The notes: generated by a model not told the origin, from the sequence alone. DNA of 64,000 nt from an uncultured Fimbriimonadales bacterium (GCA_937992175.1 CALKLF010000030.1:1367-65366); one strand, 5' to 3'. Positions 47,923-55,730 are shown, counted from the first letter of the stretch. A program made the numbers and translations.

Positions 47923-48807
47923 TTACTTTCCGGTCGCCTCGGCGTTGACCGCTTTGAGCATGAAGTTCACCAGCAGGGTGTAAAACTCTTCGGGGCGTTC
48001 GTAGCGCGCCTGCACATGCTCGCAGCCGTCCGCCCACCAGAGCTGCTTGGGTTCCCGCGCCGCCTGGAACAGGCGTTCGGCATGGTAGGGAGGGATGAGC
48101 TGGTCTTTCGTGCCGTGCATCAGCAGCACGGGGCGCGGCGCGATATGCCCGATGATATCTTCAGGGGCGACTTTCGTGGGCGAGCGGCGCGTGTAGAGCC
48201 TGCCAATCCACAGCGTGGGGTGGAGCAGCACTGACGCCTTGCCGACGGCGTTGCGCCACCAGTCCTTGACGGCGTGGCTCAGGCGCGCGTAGGCGGAGTC
48301 GGCGATGACGGCGCGGATACGCTCATCTTCCGCCGCTGCCAGCAGGCTCGCCGCGCCGCCCATCGATGCGCCATACACCACCACCGGCAAACCAGGCGCG
48401 ATACGGCATGCGAAATCGACCGCCGAAAGCACATCGAGCCGCTCCTTGTCGCCAATCGTGCAAAGGTCGCCCTCGCTCTTGCCCATCGCGCGGAAGTCGA
48501 ACACCAGGCAGTGGAAGCCCGCGTGCCACAGCTCCTTCGCCACAGGCAACGGCTCGCAGCGGTTCATCAGGTAGCCGTGACACAGAATCGCAATCCCGAC
48601 GGGCTTGGGGTTGGGAATCCACCAGCCGAAGAGCCGTATCCCGTCGCGCGAGGGGAACGCCACATTCTGATAAGGCAGCCCCATATCGCGCGGGGTCATA
48701 AAAAACGGCGTGCGGGGTGGACGCAAAGTCGCCCGTGTCGCGACATAGTTCGCGAGCAACAGCAGTCCAAAGACAATCACGACGGCGACAACGATGGCAG
48801 GCAACAT
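47923..48807 (-). CDS. alpha/beta hydrolase with N-terminal TM segment
   Basis: ILCHGY and GASMGG (GxSxG). TATACT on the minus strand at 48823..48818, 10 nt upstream of ATG 48807. Confidence 0.82.
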   Translation of the reverse strand: MLPAIVVAVVIVFGLLLLANYVATRATLRPPRTPFFMTPRDMGLPYQNVAFPSRDGIRLFGWWIPNPKPVGIAILCHGYLMNRCEPLPVAKELWHAGFHCLVFDFRAMGKSEGDLCTIGDKERLDVLSAVDFACRIAPGLPVVVYGASMGGAASLLAAAEDERIRAVIADSAYARLSHAVKDWWRNAVGKASVLLHPTLWIGRLYTRRSPTKVAPEDIIGHIAPRPVLLMHGTKDQLIPPYHAERLFQAAREPKQLWWADGCEHVQARYERPEEFYTLLVNFMLKAVNAEATGK

Positions 48808-49022
48808 GACGGTTAAGAGTATACTTCATTTGGGGCGCTGTTCAAATCGGAAATCATCTGCACAACCGTTTGCTCCAGTAGAGGGAGGTCTCACACAATG
48901 GTATCGTAGACCTGCCTCTTTCATATCTGCCGAATTCGTCGGACTCCAGCCCGATGAATTGAATCAGCTGTACCTCAGGACGACTTATTCCTCACAGTCT
49001 CACTGATGCGGGTTTTCAGGAG

Positions 49023-50897
49023 CTACGTTTGTTTCGGGTTCTTCGACCACATTTTCTTGAGTTCCTCGACCACATCTTCAAGCAACCTTACCTGCACAGG
49101 TACAGGAAAAGGCTGATAAGGCTCCATATACACATAGGATAATCCGACTACAGGTTCGTTGAGGATAAAGTCAGAGATCGGCTCTGCAAAAGCAACCTTT
49201 GCTTTTTTCAGCACTTTTGCATCGTCTTCGCTACTGACATGCTTAACGAGGAAGTTCTCGGTCTGGGCGAGGATATCCATCGGTATCCCACTGGGAGACT
49301 GTGTGGAATAGAGCATGCCAATCCCATATTTTCGCCCTTCCTTGGCGATTCTGTAGAAAACGCTGCTTGGTTCCGCAAGTAGGTTGTGCGCTTCCTCGAT
49401 GACCACCAGAACGTCGGTTTTTCGCTGTTGGGAGTCGTTGCCTATCCCTCGCGTATATCGTTGAAGCGCCTCGTTGAAGAGACGGGCTGCCAGCCTTGAG
49501 CTGATAAACTCCACTTGTTCTGGGCGCACTGTGGGTAGGTCGACTATGACAACTTTCCCCGAGATAGCTTCGCGTATAGCGCTGGATAAGAAATCCCCTA
49601 TAACGACGCTGTCTGTATGTAAATCTCGCAAGAAAGAGAGCCTTTTGGCATACTGATATAGCTCACGAGCACTATTACGCTTTTCGTCGCCGCTATCCTC
49701 GCTATTGTCGTCCGTACCATCCTCGCTATCTTGTGTCTTTGAGGTTTTCTTAGCCCTACTGAAGGCTGTCCTCAAGTCGACATCGTTATTATAAAAGTCA
49801 CCATCACGAGCCTCAAATTCTGCTTTTCCATAGCGGATTTTCATCTCCTTCGGAGGACTCAACCCTGCTTCTAAAAGCGCCCCATAAACATACGCCATCT
49901 TATTAGGGATTCTAATCCAGTCACCGTTTTCTGGATCAACCCCTGACCTTGCCGCCTCCAAATATTGCGGCGGGCGTCCCCCTTGAAACAACTCGCGCTG
50001 ATACGCGAGTTCTATAGCCAAATACGGCTCTCTGAAAAAGTTTATTTTTATCGGCTTTACCTCGTAGATGTCACCACTAGACGATCCATCCTCTACTTGC
50101 CGGTTGGTAAACCACACGATTTGCTTCTGTATTCCCAGCTTCTCGAACGCCTGTATCAAGCCCATCGCAGTACTTTCGGTAGTCTGCGTGGCATATTCGC
50201 CGTTCAAATCAAATATCAACATTCCCATGTGTGGGAAGTAGTATTTGAGAAGCACCAAAATCACCTTGTTCTCATTGCTCTTGCCAAAACCTGTTTTCCC
50301 AAAGTTTGCCGTGCGCCGACCATGAAAGTTAGCGACATCGATCATCTTTTTAACATCTATGAGTTTTCCATCCTCTGCGCTCCCCAAGCGTAGGTAACCG
50401 AAGTTCACATACGGATGTTGCTCGTGGGAAGAGGCAGCGGGCTGGAGGCTAACGTTTATTAGTCCTTGAAGTTCTTCGTTGGTCAAAGAAGAAACGCTCA
50501 CATCCAAAAGTGAGGGAACCTTGCGGGTTGAGGGGTAGAAGGAAATCGCCCCTACGCCTGCCCCGTTTTCTGGCTTCTGATACCTACCAAGTATCAAAAT
50601 TTCGTAGTGAAGGAAGTTGATGCTCTTTGCTGTATGCTCGTCCAGCTGTGCTTGATTGAGATTCCTTAGTGCCAGTGCTTCAGCGTAATCGCTGTAGGTA
50701 ATTGGACGGTATACTGAGTTCGTTACCATTCCGAGATACTCGGCACGATTGTCGTAGTAGGTGCCTGTACGCACCTTAACGAACTGACCGAGCTGTAGCG
50801 CACTTGTCTTGAGCTCACGATAATCCAACACAAGCACAATGTAGGTCTTGCCGCCTTTTGTATAGATGTCAGTCACGAAGCCAATTCGGTTTTCCAT
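49023..50897 (-). CDS. HerA/DUF87-like ring ATPase
   Basis: Walker A FGKTGFGKSN and Walker B DVLVVIEEAHNLL. YGIGMLYSTQSPSGIPMDILAQTENFLVKHV (HerA-like C-terminal block). N-terminal barrel-like segment. ATG 50897 has GGAGG 5 nt upstream (GTG 50909 is an alternative start). Confidence 0.8.
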   Translation of the reverse strand: MENRIGFVTDIYTKGGKTYIVLVLDYRELKTSALQLGQFVKVRTGTYYDNRAEYLGMVTNSVYRPITYSDYAEALALRNLNQAQLDEHTAKSINFLHYEILILGRYQKPENGAGVGAISFYPSTRKVPSLLDVSVSSLTNEELQGLINVSLQPAASSHEQHPYVNFGYLRLGSAEDGKLIDVKKMIDVANFHGRRTANFGKTGFGKSNENKVILVLLKYYFPHMGMLIFDLNGEYATQTTESTAMGLIQAFEKLGIQKQIVWFTNRQVEDGSSSGDIYEVKPIKINFFREPYLAIELAYQRELFQGGRPPQYLEAARSGVDPENGDWIRIPNKMAYVYGALLEAGLSPPKEMKIRYGKAEFEARDGDFYNNDVDLRTAFSRAKKTSKTQDSEDGTDDNSEDSGDEKRNSARELYQYAKRLSFLRDLHTDSVVIGDFLSSAIREAISGKVVIVDLPTVRPEQVEFISSRLAARLFNEALQRYTRGIGNDSQQRKTDVLVVIEEAHNLLAEPSSVFYRIAKEGRKYGIGMLYSTQSPSGIPMDILAQTENFLVKHVSSEDDAKVLKKAKVAFAEPISDFILNEPVVGLSYVYMEPYQPFPVPVQVRLLEDVVEELKKMWSKNPKQT

Positions 50898-50899
50898 AA

Positions 50900-52042
50900 C
50901 TACCTCCACATCTGAGGAATTCGCAATCCTGTATTTTGCTGAATCTGGTTTCGAAGTTCATTTTCTACGACGCGCACCAAATTGCTATCAATCGAGGCGC
51001 GTTCGTGTGCTTCGGAAACTGTCGCGATGGAGCCGCCATATAACACTGATCTATGATTATATAGAGTGCTAATTATATCTTCTATCTGTTGTTTGTCGTC
51101 GGCGAAGTACCAGGGGATATCAAAGGTGATTACGCTTTGGAGAGGAGAAAAGGTCTCAGGGAAAAATTTGCCCACATAGCGACGCCCAAATACAAAACTC
51201 CCATCGTAGTCTGGGTTCCACTGGCGTTCGAAGCCAAAGGTATAATCCATCAGCGCTTTCGGAACTTGAAAATAAACGGGGGTTCCACTCGCATGCTGCT
51301 CAATCCACCTCAGAATGACCATAGAGGGGACGCCCTCGCGCAGCAATTTAGTACTTTTGACAACCCCCACAATTCGGGTTTTGTGACGATCAAAGTAGTC
51401 TTTCAGTTTGTGTACGAACGAGTCCTTAACCCCATGCTGCTCGAGCCTTCCATCGCGAACAAGAACTACTTTTATACCTGCGTCCCTATACCGTTTTGCC
51501 AAGGTTACGATATACGCCCATTCCAGAACGCTGCGCACTATATTTGTAAAGCTTTCAAGGTCCTTGTAGATGTGTTCTCCTAAATCGTCTGCCTGAATAC
51601 CTGTTTCGTCCGAGAACTCGGTAAGGGGAGATTCAGAAAACAACTTCTGGATGTAGGTGCGACGCTTCCCTTGCAGTGATGCACTAGCGCTTCCATTATG
51701 TGCTTTTAGTATATCAAACAGTTCGTAGTTTTTGATTACCTTCACTACAGGCTCTGGCTGCTTTTCTAGATCGCTGCTAAACGCGGAGACTCTAATCATG
51801 CCAAGGCTGATCTCGCGAAACTGGGGAAACAATAACGAGCTTCCTCCATCTACGGCGATAGTAACCAGGCGACAGCTCGACGAGGCAGGCGTAATGCACC
51901 GCACTGCGGATTTGTCCAGACAATCACTCAACCGTTCAATCTGTTGCTGAACCTCTTTCAGCAACTTGTAGTCATCCTCAGTAACCTGCTCCAAGAAGTC
52001 AGAGACCCCCAAAGGGTTATTCATTTGACCTGTGTAGGGCAT
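50900..52042 (-). CDS. NurA-like nuclease
   Basis: Ordered motifs TIAVDGGS, LEWAY, VLVRDGRL, VGVVKSTKL and VSEAHERA match my recollection of the NurA D..E..DG.L..G(V/I)sK(S/T)..H pattern. Gene order is directly 5' of the HerA-like gene. Confidence 0.65.
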   Translation of the reverse strand: MPYTGQMNNPLGVSDFLEQVTEDDYKLLKEVQQQIERLSDCLDKSAVRCITPASSSCRLVTIAVDGGSSLLFPQFREISLGMIRVSAFSSDLEKQPEPVVKVIKNYELFDILKAHNGSASASLQGKRRTYIQKLFSESPLTEFSDETGIQADDLGEHIYKDLESFTNIVRSVLEWAYIVTLAKRYRDAGIKVVLVRDGRLEQHGVKDSFVHKLKDYFDRHKTRIVGVVKSTKLLREGVPSMVILRWIEQHASGTPVYFQVPKALMDYTFGFERQWNPDYDGSFVFGRRYVGKFFPETFSPLQSVITFDIPWYFADDKQQIEDIISTLYNHRSVLYGGSIATVSEAHERASIDSNLVRVVENELRNQIQQNTGLRIPQMWR

Positions 52043-53087
52043 CGTCCTCTCCGTCGTAAGAGTCTGAATAGCGTGGGTCTTCCCACAGCTGGACGACTGA
52101 ATTATACCCGATTTCTGACAGTATCGGCTGTTGGATCTTTCGCTCGACTTCGCGGAGGCGTTGCAGGATGGTCGCTCGCGCGCTGAGAGTAAGACGTCCT
52201 AACTGCCCATTCGGTTTGCGTACCCTGTTTTCAGGCGTGCGAGCAAATTCTACCAGCCAATTTCGGAACTCTAACAGGGGTTTCCAGTGCGCCTCTTCTT
52301 GCACAATCCTTTGCATCGTTCGGTCTTGCGACACGACGGAACATGTCCAGCATCCAAAGCGCGTCTCACGCCCTTTATACACAGAGAGCAATCCCCGTGT
52401 AGGATAGCCCCACGAGGGCGCAACGAAGCTCAGAAAATCCCACACATCACATTCGCGCCATACAATAATTGGAGAAAAGTATCCGATTTTGAGGCGCTGG
52501 CTCTGTGCATACCAGACGCCCTGACCGCACTCGCCGCCTCGTGAACAGGAAAGCTTTAGCCGAGCGTCTCGCACATCGGACTCGCCGAAGCGTATGCCAG
52601 TCACGACCAGTGTACGCTCACGTTCTTCAAGGGGAAGCGTACCCAAGTAGGCTTCAACGGGCTTGATTTTCAGGCGATGTGTGCACCAGCGGAAACCCTG
52701 ATGGGGTGGGGGATAGCCTTTGCCAATCACCTGCACCCAGAAGGAATCCTCAGGCGCAGGTCTTAGGACAGTCGCCTTCGCTAATCGCTGCGCGGTGATC
52801 GATTGAAGAAAAGAAAGCGCGAACTGTTGTAGCGTGGGAATTTCTATTTCAGTATCGCAATACAGAACCTCTGGGAGAATCTCGTATTTTCGAAGTACCT
52901 CAGTACAAAGCACTAACGCTGTGGTCGAGTCCTTACCCCCTGAATACATCAGAATCCAGCGATTGTAGCCTCGCCCCAACATAGCTTCAATGGCTTGCTG
53001 AGAGAGTTTTGTCATCGCGTGGAGCCTGTCACTGCCCTCAAGAGAAATGTCCGCAAACGGATTTGCCAGCGAAACATCAAGTTGCAT
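52017..53087 (-). CDS. DndC-like PP-loop ATP pyrophosphatase (PAPS-reductase family)
   Basis: ILMYSGGKDST (SGGKDS at 52943..52926), GFRWCTHRLKIKP, VVTGIRFGES, ETRFGCWTCSVVSQD, and a C-terminal LGRLTLSARATILQRLREVE segment as in DndC. Only the last 356 codons of the 650-aa ORF are used, because the upstream part is antisense to the MFS gene. Confidence 0.75.
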   Translation of the reverse strand: MQLDVSLANPFADISLEGSDRLHAMTKLSQQAIEAMLGRGYNRWILMYSGGKDSTTALVLCTEVLRKYEILPEVLYCDTEIEIPTLQQFALSFLQSITAQRLAKATVLRPAPEDSFWVQVIGKGYPPPHQGFRWCTHRLKIKPVEAYLGTLPLEERERTLVVTGIRFGESDVRDARLKLSCSRGGECGQGVWYAQSQRLKIGYFSPIIVWRECDVWDFLSFVAPSWGYPTRGLLSVYKGRETRFGCWTCSVVSQDRTMQRIVQEEAHWKPLLEFRNWLVEFARTPENRVRKPNGQLGRLTLSARATILQRLREVERKIQQPILSEIGYNSVVQLWEDPRYSDSYDGEDDALHRSNE

Positions 53088-53146
53088 AGCATAGGCATAT
53101 TCGCTGATTTTGTGATAATTCCTGCGGCACTGGCTCAGAACATCGG

Positions 53147-53152
53147 TATAAT
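53147..53152 (+). promoter_or_regulatory. -10 box (GGTATAATCCC) of the leaderless MFS gene
   Basis: TATAAT lies 7 nt upstream of GTG 53160. Same extended motif as at folK, the tricorn-like gene and the 30354 gene. Confidence 0.5.
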
Positions 53153-54539: not shown

Positions 54540-55730
54540 ATGACTCGCAAGCAGGGGACAGTGCTGCTCGCGATGAGTGGGGGCGTGGATAGTTCGGTGG
54601 CGGCGGCGATTCTGATGAAGCGCGGCTACGAGGTCGTCGGCGTCACGATGCAGATCTGGCAGGAGTCGCATCCCGACCCGCGGCATGGGGGCTGCTGCTC
54701 GCTCGGCGCGGTCGAGGATGCGCGGCGCGTCGCGCGCAGGCTGGGTATTCCGCACTATGTGCTGAACTTCCGTCGCGTGTTCGCCGACACGGTGATTCGC
54801 GACTTCATCCACGAGTATCGGCGCGGGCGCACGCCTAATCCGTGCGTGCAGTGCAACCGCTTCGTGAAGTTCGACGCGCTGCTGCGCAAGGCGGACGAGC
54901 TGGGCTGCGACTATATCTCGACTGGACACTACGCCCGCACGCGCTCCAACCCGCACACGGGGCGGTACAACCTGCTGCGCGCCGTGAATAAGGAGAAGGA
55001 TCAGTCCTATGTGCTGTATATGTTGAATCAGGAGCAGCTGCGCCGCGCGATTTTCCCGCTGGGCAATATGCCGACCAAGGCGGAGACGCGCCGCCTTGCC
55101 GCCGAGCTGGGGCTGTGGACGGCGAACAAGCCCGACAGTCAGGAAATTTGCTTCGCAGCGCATGCGGGGGGCTATCACCAGTTCCTGCGCGAGGTCACGC
55201 CCGACGCCTTCAAGCCGGGCGAGATTCGCGATACTTCAGGGCGCGTGCTGGGCACGCACAACGGCATCGCGCTCTATACGATTGGACAGCGCAGGCGACT
55301 GGGCATCAACACGGGCGGTAAGCCGATGTTCGTGCTGGGCATTATTCCAGAGGAGAACGCGATTATCGTGGGCGACGAGGCGGAACTCTACGAGCGCGAG
55401 ATGATCGTGGGCGATGTGGAGTGGAGCAGCATTCCGTATCTGGAGAGGCCGCTGCGCGTCATGGCAAAAATTCGGTATAATGCGCCTATGGCGCAGGCGA
55501 CGCTCTACCCCTTAGACGACCCGCGCCGCGTGCGCGTGGTGTTCGACGAACCCGTGCGGGCAATTACGCCGGGGCAGTTCGGCGTGTTCTATCGGGGCGA
55601 GACGGTGGTGGGCGGCGGCGTGATTGAGGCGCCTTACGCGGCGAACCCCGACGCGGAGACGACCGACCGCGCGGTCAAGCGGGCGCTGCAAGTCGTGCAG
55701 CCGTTCCTGCTGGAGGGGGCAGAAGGATGA
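54540..55730 (+). CDS. mnmA: tRNA 2-thiouridine(34) synthase MnmA
   Basis: VLLAMSGGVDSSVAA PP-loop, PNPCVQCN, DQSYVL. Confidence 0.93.
   Translation: MTRKQGTVLLAMSGGVDSSVAAAILMKRGYEVVGVTMQIWQESHPDPRHGGCCSLGAVEDARRVARRLGIPHYVLNFRRVFADTVIRDFIHEYRRGRTPNPCVQCNRFVKFDALLRKADELGCDYISTGHYARTRSNPHTGRYNLLRAVNKEKDQSYVLYMLNQEQLRRAIFPLGNMPTKAETRRLAAELGLWTANKPDSQEICFAAHAGGYHQFLREVTPDAFKPGEIRDTSGRVLGTHNGIALYTIGQRRRLGINTGGKPMFVLGIIPEENAIIVGDEAELYEREMIVGDVEWSSIPYLERPLRVMAKIRYNAPMAQATLYPLDDPRRVRVVFDEPVRAITPGQFGVFYRGETVVGGGVIEAPYAANPDAETTDRAVKRALQVVQPFLLEGAEG

What the first reader, a model, noticed from the sequence alone, without database searches (positions are those of the whole stretch)
48824..53146. Low-GC islet with a coupled three-gene operon: DndC-like PP-loop enzyme, NurA-like nuclease, HerA-like ATPase
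Seen in the sequence:
- There is an abrupt compositional change. G+C is 25/60 at 50041-50100, against 39/60 at 54601-54660.
- The change lies exactly between two native-looking leaderless promoters: TATACT 48823..48818 for the hydrolase gene and TATAAT 53147-53152 for the MFS gene.
- The three minus-strand genes form one unit. 52017..53087 and 50900..52042 overlap by 26 nt, with GGAGAGG before ATG 52042.
- The NurA-like stop TAG 50902..50900 is followed 2 nt later by ATG 50897, and its GGAGG lies inside the upstream gene.
- No integrase, tRNA, methyltransferase, cysteine desulfurase, DndB/D/E or SspA/B/C-like gene is present in or next to the islet.

Inference:
- A PP-loop ATP-pyrophosphatase, a nuclease and an oligomeric ATPase formally mirror the logic of DNA phosphorothioation modules (DndC with the DndD ATPase; SspD with the SspB nickase and SspC ATPase). 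Here the module is built from NurA/HerA parts.
- HerA-type ATPases are also the scaffold of known defence systems paired with SIR2 or DUF4297 effectors.
- I do not recall a named system with this trio. It is therefore a candidate for an undescribed DNA-modification or anti-phage module.
Basis: partly seen in the sequence, partly recalled or inferred. Interest (0 to 1): 0.9.

Follow-up and report, generated by a model that had tools for sequence, protein, structure and literature searches.

The report
TdpABC phosphorothioate defence cassette, already described

Summary

The claim that the trio is undescribed is refuted.
- The "HerA-like" ATPase is a full-length homologue of TdpA (PDB 8wet_A, E = 2.5e-134, 44% identity).
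- The "NurA-like" protein is a full-length homologue of TdpB (8wet_G, E = 2.7e-65, 37% identity). Its AlphaFold model matches TdpB at TM 0.75-0.80, against 0.36-0.50 for classical NurA.
- The DndC-like gene belongs to a distinct short clade that sits directly upstream of TdpB and TdpA homologues in Thermus, Anaerolineales and 10 of 10 informative metagenome contigs.

This is the tdpC-tdpB-tdpA cassette of An et al. (Nat Chem Biol 2025). Later papers cite it as the third phosphorothioate system, in which tdpC alone makes the modification.

The window's copy is a divergent member, apparently in a Fimbriimonadales (Armatimonadota) genome. It sits among housekeeping genes with no integrase or tRNA.

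Two side observations in related loci may go beyond what I could confirm as published:
- a second cassette type pairing a TdpC-type gene with a Deinococcus-type HerA and a very divergent NurA-fold protein;
- orphan TdpC-type genes on phage-like contigs.

The parts
52017..53087 (-). tdpC: short DndC-like PP-loop ATP pyrophosphatase, the phosphorothioate-writing enzyme (356 aa; gene callers use the alternative start at 53015, giving 332 aa)
   Evidence: PADLOC DndC 7.1e-51 and TIGR03183 DndC 1.6e-48, but 165.7 bits is below the 290.4 cutoff and only profile positions 13-303 of 447 are covered. The PP-loop SGGKDS is at 49-54. Invariant cysteines are C135, C181, C187, C213, C246 and C249. The protein is 49-51% identical to Thermus proteins that sit directly upstream of TdpB and TdpA orthologues. 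Compared with canonical DndC, this clade has a specific SCSRGGEC motif, lacks the GECP...SCG insert and lacks the C-terminal extension. A conserved N-terminal 'RL' segment in the family alignment favours the 53087 start.
50900..52042 (-). tdpB: NurA-fold nuclease subunit (380 aa); its start overlaps the end of tdpC by 26 nt
   Evidence: phmmer against the PDB gives TdpB 8wet_G, E = 2.7e-65, query 1-368 to chain 1-353; 37% identity by BLASTP. The AF2 model (pLDDT 84.4, pTM 0.84) matches 8wfd_G with Foldseek E = 3.9e-25 and TM 0.75/0.80; classical NurA structures (7f6d_G, 2ygk_A, 3tai_B) reach only TM 0.34-0.50. Invariant residues are D65 (VDGG), E174 (EWAY), D197 (RDGRL) and H346 (EAH). The Pfam NurA hit is below threshold.
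49023..50897 (-). tdpA: HerA/FtsK-class hexameric ATPase/translocase subunit (624 aa); its ATG lies 2 nt after the tdpB stop
   Evidence: phmmer against the PDB gives TdpA 8wet_A, E = 2.5e-134, query 2-613 to chain 3-584. The next best hits, anti-phage and repair HerA proteins, are at E >= 2.6e-14. Identity is 44% by BLASTP. Walker A is GKTGFGKS at 200-207 and Walker B is EEAH at 501-504, both conserved with solved TdpA. DUF87 1.3e-12.
53088..53125 (-). Upstream leader of the cassette, shared with an independently located copy
   Evidence: Nucleotide homology with the cassette in L081 (different flanking genes) runs from window 49052 to 53125 and stops there.
48824..49022 (.). Low-GC spacer between the tdpA stop and the start of the neighbouring hydrolase gene; part of the islet but not shared with other cassettes
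   Evidence: G+C is 0.48-0.53 in 200-nt windows. There is no homology with L081, L086 or L079. No ORF of 60 aa or more in this spacer was tested against any protein library; the only one listed there is a 70-aa plus-strand ORF at 48794..49006.

Best explanation
The islet is a horizontally acquired tdpC-tdpB-tdpA cassette, a member of the TdpABC phosphorothioate (PT) restriction-modification-type defence system.

TdpC is a DndC-related PP-loop enzyme that acts alone, without DndA/D/E or SspB/C partners. It replaces a non-bridging backbone oxygen of host DNA with sulfur.
- From the title of An et al. 2025: the reaction goes through an adenylated intermediate.
- From PMC12914056: tdpC alone suffices for PT synthesis, and the consensus seen so far is GpsATC.

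TdpA (a HerA-class ring ATPase) and TdpB (a NurA-fold nuclease) form one complex, as solved in 8wet and 8wfd. That complex translocates along and degrades DNA lacking the PT mark, such as phage DNA. I recall the primary paper reporting that PT-marked self DNA inhibits the complex; I could not re-read that paper.

Shown here: homology, fold, intact catalytic motifs, strict synteny, foreign composition and cassette mobility.
Inferred by homology only: PT modification of this host's DNA, its sequence motif, and anti-phage activity.
For: - TdpA homology is full-length, E = 2.5e-134, 44% identity.
- TdpB homology is full-length, E = 2.7e-65, 37% identity, with a fold match at TM 0.75-0.80.
- Walker A/B in TdpA and the D/E/D/H residues in TdpB are intact.
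- The TdpC PP-loop and six invariant cysteines are intact.
- The order tdpC-tdpB-tdpA recurs in Thermus filiformis (L079), Thermus sp. (L005), an Anaerolineales MAG (L086), a relative with different flanks (L081) and TdpB-anchored metagenome loci. In those loci TdpA is downstream in 15 of 15, and TdpC is upstream in 10 of 10 that have room for it.
- Translational coupling is confirmed.
- Composition is foreign, z = -7.7.
- Homology with L081 is limited to the cassette, 49052-53125.
- The literature names tdpABC as a PT system in which tdpC alone makes PT and lists it among PT-based R-M defences.
Against: - No reference TdpC sequence was available: there is no PDB entry and the primary paper is not held. 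TdpC orthology therefore rests on synteny with TdpA/B orthologues and on clade-specific motifs.
- Identity to the characterised proteins is moderate (37-44%), and the host phylum (apparently Armatimonadota) differs from Thermus, so specificity and regulation may differ.
- No sulfur-donor gene (cysteine desulfurase) lies nearby, although housekeeping IscS/SufS enzymes serve the other PT systems.
- Nothing here shows expression or activity.
Confidence: 0.9

Rival explanations
1. An undescribed DNA-modification or anti-phage module built from DndC, NurA and HerA parts.
For: PADLOC-DB v2 (2023), NCBIfam and Pfam have no model for the middle protein and no system-level match. The two large Dnd/BREX comparative-genomics papers never mention NurA or this trio. 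Full-text searches for DndC + HerA + NurA found no paper.
Against: Solved structures named TdpA and TdpB match at E = 2.5e-134 and 2.7e-65 over full length. Papers from 2025-2026 cite tdpABC as an established PT system. The libraries simply predate the description.
Confidence: 0.03
2. A bacterial HerA-NurA DNA end-resection/repair operon that merely neighbours a sulfur-metabolism PAPS reductase.
For: The NurA fold and HerA ATPase are the same building blocks as the repair complex. The Deinococcus and Sulfolobus NurA/HerA structures appear among the hits.
Against: Repair HerA scores E = 1.2e-13 against 2.5e-134 for TdpA. Repair NurA reaches TM 0.36-0.50 against 0.75-0.80 for TdpB. The PP-loop gene scores as DndC (7e-51), not CysH; CysD-type hits are only 1e-5 or worse. 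The three genes overlap or are coupled and travel together across phyla. Their composition is foreign.
Confidence: 0.03
3. A TdpABC-derived cassette that has diverged in function, for example a different modification chemistry or target motif, or a decaying relic that is no longer active.
For: Identity to the characterised proteins is only 37-44% and the host phylum differs. TdpC-type genes are clearly modular: they pair with another HerA/NurA set and also occur alone on phage-like contigs. There is no nearby sulfur donor.
Against: All catalytic and cluster-binding motifs are intact. There are no frameshifts or internal stops. Family-wide invariant residues are conserved. Close relatives keep the same three full-length genes.
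Confidence: 0.04

Closest known systems
TdpABC phosphorothioate defence system (An et al., Nat Chem Biol 2025;21:1160-1170; PDB 8wet, 8wfd, 8y1k)
   Same: The same three proteins, with full-length homology to TdpA and TdpB and the same fold. A single DndC-like writer without DndD/E or SspB/C. The same compact operon. Relatives occur mostly in thermophile lineages: Thermus, Thermomicrobia, Anaerolineales, Desulfovirgula and thermophilic archaea.
   Different: Identity to the solved proteins is only 37-44%. The host appears to be a Fimbriimonadales (Armatimonadota) MAG, not Thermus (nearest named homologues P0004 and P0125). The modification motif and activity are untested.
DndABCDE-DndFGH
   Same: The writer is a PP-loop enzyme homologous to DndC (E about 1e-50). 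The DndH restriction subunit also ends in a HerA/FtsK ATPase domain (PADLOC DndH hits; PMC10853773).
   Different: No DndA/B/D/E or DndF/G/H genes are present. TdpC scores below the DndC equivalog cutoff. It lacks DndC's GECP...SCG insert and C-terminal extension, and carries its own SCSRGGEC motif. The nuclease is NurA-fold, not a REase domain.
SspABCD-SspE/FGH and BREX type 4 (BrxP)
   Same: PT-based defence systems with a PAPS-reductase-family writer. Weak hits to SspD (8.5e-13) and BrxP (3.2e-11).
   Different: No SspB/DUF4007, SspC/BrxC, PglZ or BrxL is present. The writer is much closer to DndC than to SspD or BrxP.
Archaeal/bacterial HerA-NurA DNA end-resection complex
   Same: The architecture is a hexameric HerA-class ATPase plus a NurA-fold nuclease.
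   Different: The sequence relationship is distant (E about 1e-13; TM 0.36-0.50). The pair is coupled to a DNA-modifying enzyme and is carried on a mobile, compositionally foreign cassette.
SIR2-HerA and DUF4297-HerA anti-phage systems
   Same: A HerA-class ATPase serves as the scaffold of a defence complex (PDB hits 8j4u, 8wiv, 8xau and others at E 1e-14 to 1e-8).
   Different: The effector is a NurA-fold nuclease, not SIR2 or DUF4297. A self-marking modification enzyme is present, so the logic is restriction-modification and not abortive infection.

Membership tests
TdpABC | TdpA: HerA-class ATPase homologous over full length to the solved TdpA, with intact Walker A and Walker B | tested here: met
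   8wet_A E = 2.5e-134, query 2-613 to chain 3-584; 44% identity; GKTGFGKS (200-207) and EEAH (501-504) conserved.
TdpABC | TdpB: NurA-fold nuclease homologous to the solved TdpB in sequence and structure | tested here: met
   8wet_G E = 2.7e-65, 37% identity. Foldseek E = 3.9e-25, TM 0.75/0.80. Invariant D65, E174, D197 and H346.
TdpABC | TdpC: a stand-alone DndC-like PP-loop writer encoded in the same operon, orthologous to the published TdpC | tested here: inconclusive
   A DndC-like gene is present, with an intact PP-loop and cysteines. It is 49-51% identical to the genes directly upstream of TdpB/TdpA orthologues in Thermus. I could not obtain a reference TdpC sequence from the primary paper, so orthology is inferred from synteny.
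TdpABC | Compact three-gene cassette with no DndA/B/D/E or SspA/B/C genes | tested here: met
   Overlapping or coupled genes. The neighbours are an MFS transporter, MnmA, an alpha/beta hydrolase and a GFO oxidoreductase.
TdpABC | DNA carries phosphorothioate (reported consensus GpsATC), made by TdpC alone | not testable with these tools
   This needs LC-MS/MS or PT mapping. GATC is depleted in the window (O/E 0.34), but less so than GGCC, ACGT, CCGG and CTAG, so the depletion says nothing specific.
TdpABC | Anti-phage activity with PT-dependent self/non-self discrimination by TdpAB | not testable with these tools
   Requires experiments.
TdpABC | Thermophile or extremophile host | not tested
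   The host is apparently a Fimbriimonadales MAG and its growth temperature is unknown. Most relatives come from thermophilic lineages.
Dnd (DndABCDE) | DndC equivalog score, plus the DndD ABC ATPase and DndE partners | tested here: not met
   TIGR03183 scores 165.7 bits against a cutoff of 290.4, covering profile positions 13-303 of 447. No DndD/E is present. Motif differences are shown.
Ssp / BREX type 4 | SspD/BrxP-type writer with SspB/DUF4007 and an SspC/BrxC ATPase | tested here: not met
   Only weak SspD (8.5e-13) and BrxP (3.2e-11) hits, far below the DndC hits. The partner genes are absent.
Classical HerA-NurA repair complex | NurA (PF09376) and HerA equivalog-level matches | tested here: not met
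   NurA scores 16.8 bits against a gathering score of 21. The HerA NCBIfam equivalogs score 45-69 bits against cutoffs of 800-970.
Assimilatory PAPS/APS reductase (CysH) | Best match to CysH/CysD-type families | tested here: not met
   The best matches are DndC-type (1e-48 to 1e-51); CysD is only 1e-5.

The most novel reading that the evidence does not exclude
For the window itself, the most novel reading is modest: a TdpABC member in a non-Thermus phylum, with possibly different target specificity.

The most novel reading the wider evidence allows is that TdpC-type enzymes form a modular single-gene phosphorothioate writer with a broader repertoire than the described TdpABC. Two observations support this.

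(a) A second cassette type has the gene order TdpC-type, then a Deinococcus-type HerA, then a roughly 430-aa very divergent NurA-fold protein. Its partners are not detectably homologous in sequence to TdpA or TdpB. It occurs in Thermomicrobia, Chloroflexia, Desulfovirgula and Caldarchaeum.

(b) Orphan TdpC-type genes occur on phage-like contigs. These could serve as anti-restriction self-modification against TdpAB.

I could not check whether An et al. already cover either point.
Probability: 0.4. Interest if true: 0.45.

Novelty: new member of a known kind. Interest (0 to 1): 0.2.

Why it matters
For genome annotation, this shows that TdpABC is missed by PADLOC-DB v2, Pfam and NCBIfam: TdpB has no model, and TdpC is labelled 'PAPS reductase' or 'DndC'. 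Such islets therefore look novel when they are not.

Biologically, the window adds a divergent Tdp member in Armatimonadota. The cassette sits as a bare three-gene unit between housekeeping genes, with no integrase, tRNA or border repeats identified. That placement is consistent with the cassette moving as a minimal self-sufficient unit.

The side observations suggest the single-enzyme PT writer is reused in more contexts than the one characterised system. That would matter for PT epigenomics and for phage counter-defence.

Tried and rejected
- **Literature searches that found nothing.** DndC + HerA + NurA, and 'phosphoadenosine phosphosulfate reductase' + DUF87, returned no papers. The two large Aravind/Krishnan surveys of Dnd and BREX do not contain the trio. 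Without the structure search this would have wrongly suggested novelty.
- **PADLOC, NCBIfam and Pfam.** They gave no hit above threshold for the middle protein.
- **phmmer of the window's partners against 78 genome loci.** It found them only in one Thermus contig. This first suggested poor conservation. The cause was sampling (mostly canonical DndC loci) together with the existence of the type B partners.
- **hhalign of type A against type B partners.** No significant similarity: NurA-like E = 0.2, ATPases E = 0.004. I therefore do not treat type B as plain TdpAB.
- **GATC depletion as a Tdp footprint.** Rejected, because four other palindromes are more depleted.
- **Promoter claims.** Consensus matches are no more frequent than in shuffles.
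- **The primary Tdp paper.** It could not be read. Mechanistic details beyond what the citing papers state come from my memory and are marked as such.

Full report
**1.

The window has about 61% G+C throughout, apart from one dip to 47-50% between roughly 48.8 and 53.1 kb.
- The islet 48824-53146 is 49.0% G+C. The lowest of 510 other windows of the same length is 57.9%, giving z = -7.7.
- GC3 is 0.52-0.54 in the three islet genes, against 0.75-0.83 in the neighbouring hydrolase, MnmA and GFO genes.

Three minus-strand ORFs fill the islet: 52017..53087 (356 aa), 50900..52042 (380 aa) and 49023..50897 (624 aa).
- The first two overlap by 26 nt, with GGAGAGG before ATG 52042.
- The second ends in TAG, followed by 2 nt and then the ATG of the third, with GGAGG upstream.

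Promoter-like matches are no more frequent than in shuffled sequence (6 against 4.3 +/- 1.7), so the 'leaderless promoter' reading is unsupported.

The window has no tRNA. The Pfam-annotated copy of the same locus shows no integrase, methyltransferase, desulfurase, Dnd or Ssp gene nearby (L083). L083 is an independent assembly that is 100% identical over 8 kb, so the islet is not an assembly artefact.

**2. What the proteins are**

Profile libraries give a partial picture.
- Gene 1 is DndC-like: PADLOC DndC 7e-51 and TIGR03183 1.6e-48. It scores below the equivalog cutoff (165.7 against 290.4 bits) and covers only profile positions 13-303 of 447.
- Gene 3 is a DUF87/HerA ATPase.
- Gene 2 has only a sub-threshold NurA hit (E = 0.005) and nothing in PADLOC or NCBIfam.

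I therefore built an alignment of gene 2 homologues (A2) and predicted the structure (pLDDT 84.4, pTM 0.84). The Foldseek search of the PDB was decisive.
- The top hits are chain G of 'TdpAB' (8wfd and 8wet): E = 3.9e-25, TM 0.75-0.80, 34% identity.
- Classical NurA structures score far lower: 7f6d_G, 2ygk_A and 3tai_B at E about 1e-5 to 1e-3, TM 0.34-0.50.

Sequence searches of the PDB confirm the match.
- Gene 2 is TdpB: E = 2.7e-65, full length.
- Gene 3 is TdpA: E = 2.5e-134, full length. The next best HerA proteins are at 1e-14 or worse.
- BLASTP identities are 37% for TdpB and 44% for TdpA.
- Walker A (GKTGFGKS), Walker B (EEAH) and the invariant D65/E174/D197/H346 of the nuclease are intact.

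**3. The literature**

[quoted passage not shown] It is listed among PT-based R-M defences in a 2025 review (PMC13223576).

The primary paper is not in the library. Its title gives the chemistry ('phosphorothioation pathway via adenylated intermediate'). The detail that PT marks restrain TdpAB on self DNA is my recollection of that paper and is marked as such.

The earlier Dnd and BREX surveys do not contain the trio. PADLOC-DB v2 (2023) predates it. That is why the cassette looks novel to profile-based tools.

**4. Conservation of the trio**

The DndC-like gene belongs to a large family of short proteins, about 350 aa. All members share the PP-loop and six invariant cysteines.

Compared with canonical DndC, the clade differs in three ways:
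- it has its own SCSRGGEC motif;
- it lacks the GECP...SCG insert;
- it lacks the C-terminal extension.

The order tdpC-tdpB-tdpA recurs in Thermus filiformis next to transposases (L079), Thermus sp. JCM 17653 (L005), an Anaerolineales MAG (L086) and a close relative with entirely different flanking genes (L081).

Anchoring on TdpB instead gives 15 metagenome loci.
- TdpA is immediately downstream in all 15.
- TdpC is immediately upstream in all 10 that have room for it.

An exhaustive profile search found only 51 representative clusters for TdpB, so this is a small family.

Nucleotide homology between the window and L081 spans 49052-53125 and stops there. The mobile unit is therefore just the three genes plus about 40 nt of leader.

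**5. Mechanism**

The best explanation is a PT restriction-modification-type system.
- TdpC marks host DNA.
- The TdpA ring motor with the TdpB nuclease destroys unmarked DNA.

Homology, fold, motifs, synteny and foreign origin are shown here. The modification itself, its motif and the defence phenotype are inferred by homology.

The rival explanations are a repair HerA-NurA operon, an assimilatory PAPS reductase, an undescribed system, or a diverged or decayed relic. Each is contradicted by the score gaps, by the coupling and synteny, or by the intact motifs.

**6. Side observations**

(a) Type B cassette. A TdpC-type gene scores as high against my TdpC profile as genuine ones (495-551 bits).
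- It is followed by a 556-710-aa HerA related to the Deinococcus radiodurans enzyme (7f6d_B, E = 3.5e-28).
- Then comes a protein of about 426 aa with no sequence hit in Pfam, PADLOC or the PDB.
- The model of that protein (pLDDT 84, pTM 0.87) best matches Sulfolobus NurA: E = 3.8e-4, probability 1.0, TM 0.33-0.42.
- The cassette occurs in Thermomicrobiaceae, Chloroflexia, Desulfovirgula and Caldarchaeum.
- Its partners are not detectably related in sequence to TdpA or TdpB.

(b) Orphan TdpC-type genes.
- One lies on a 112-kb contig with a terminase, SSB and VRR-NUC (L091; 60% identical to the window's TdpC).
- One lies on an IMG/VR contig (L092).
- None of the 64 viral loci carries TdpA or TdpB.
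- A counter-defence role is an untested idea.

(c) Palindrome avoidance in the host: GGCC 9 observed against 341 expected, ACGT 16 against 211, CCGG 57 against 264, CTAG 20 against 87, GATC 116 against 344. GATC depletion is therefore not a Tdp-specific signal.

**7. Verdict**

This is a new, divergent member of a known kind, apparently in Fimbriimonadales. Interest is low.

Noticed in passing
L080:8001-12059; also L089:7001-11522, L002:298-4347, L003:9896-14507, L004:3-4193: 'Type B' cassette: a TdpC-type gene, then a Deinococcus-type HerA ATPase (7f6d_B, E = 3.5e-28), then a protein of about 426 aa with no sequence-level annotation. The AF2 model of that protein best matches Sulfolobus NurA. 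The partners are not detectably homologous in sequence to TdpA or TdpB, and the gene order is reversed. This may be an undescribed Tdp-like lineage.
   Followed up: partly
L091:7001-8041 (JGI contig Ga0599197_00791, 112 kb); L092:1846-2703 (IMGVR_UViG_3300000145_000011): Orphan TdpC-type genes, 60% and 52% identical to the window's TdpC, lie on phage-like contigs (terminase, SSB and VRR-NUC nearby) with no TdpA or TdpB. None of the 64 viral loci carries TdpA/B. They might be anti-restriction self-modification enzymes. L091 also shows strong GATC depletion (O/E 0.18).
   Followed up: partly
window:1-64000: Extreme avoidance of short palindromes: GGCC 9 observed against 341 expected (O/E 0.03), ACGT 0.08, CCGG 0.22, CTAG 0.23, GATC 0.34. 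This suggests heavy type II restriction pressure in this lineage.
   Followed up: partly
L088:7001-8047 and L001:9899-10957: Solitary TdpC-type genes (517-519 bits on the TdpC profile) sit in cellular-looking contigs without HerA/NurA partners. In L001 the convergent neighbour is an SNF2 helicase with strong PADLOC ZorD/DpdE/DrmD-type hits.
   Followed up: no
window:53015-53161: Start-codon ambiguity at the divergent junction. Gene callers start tdpC at 53015 (332 aa) and the MFS gene at 53019, which leaves no intergenic space. The family alignment favours the tdpC start at 53087, and the MFS gene probably starts further downstream (for example GTG 53161).
   Followed up: partly
L079:12178-16033 and L080:6696-7307: Transposase genes (Transposase_mut, DDE_3, DDE_Tnp_1) directly flank the Tdp cassette in Thermus filiformis and the type B cassette in Thermomicrobiaceae. 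The window's copy has no mobility gene nearby.
   Followed up: no
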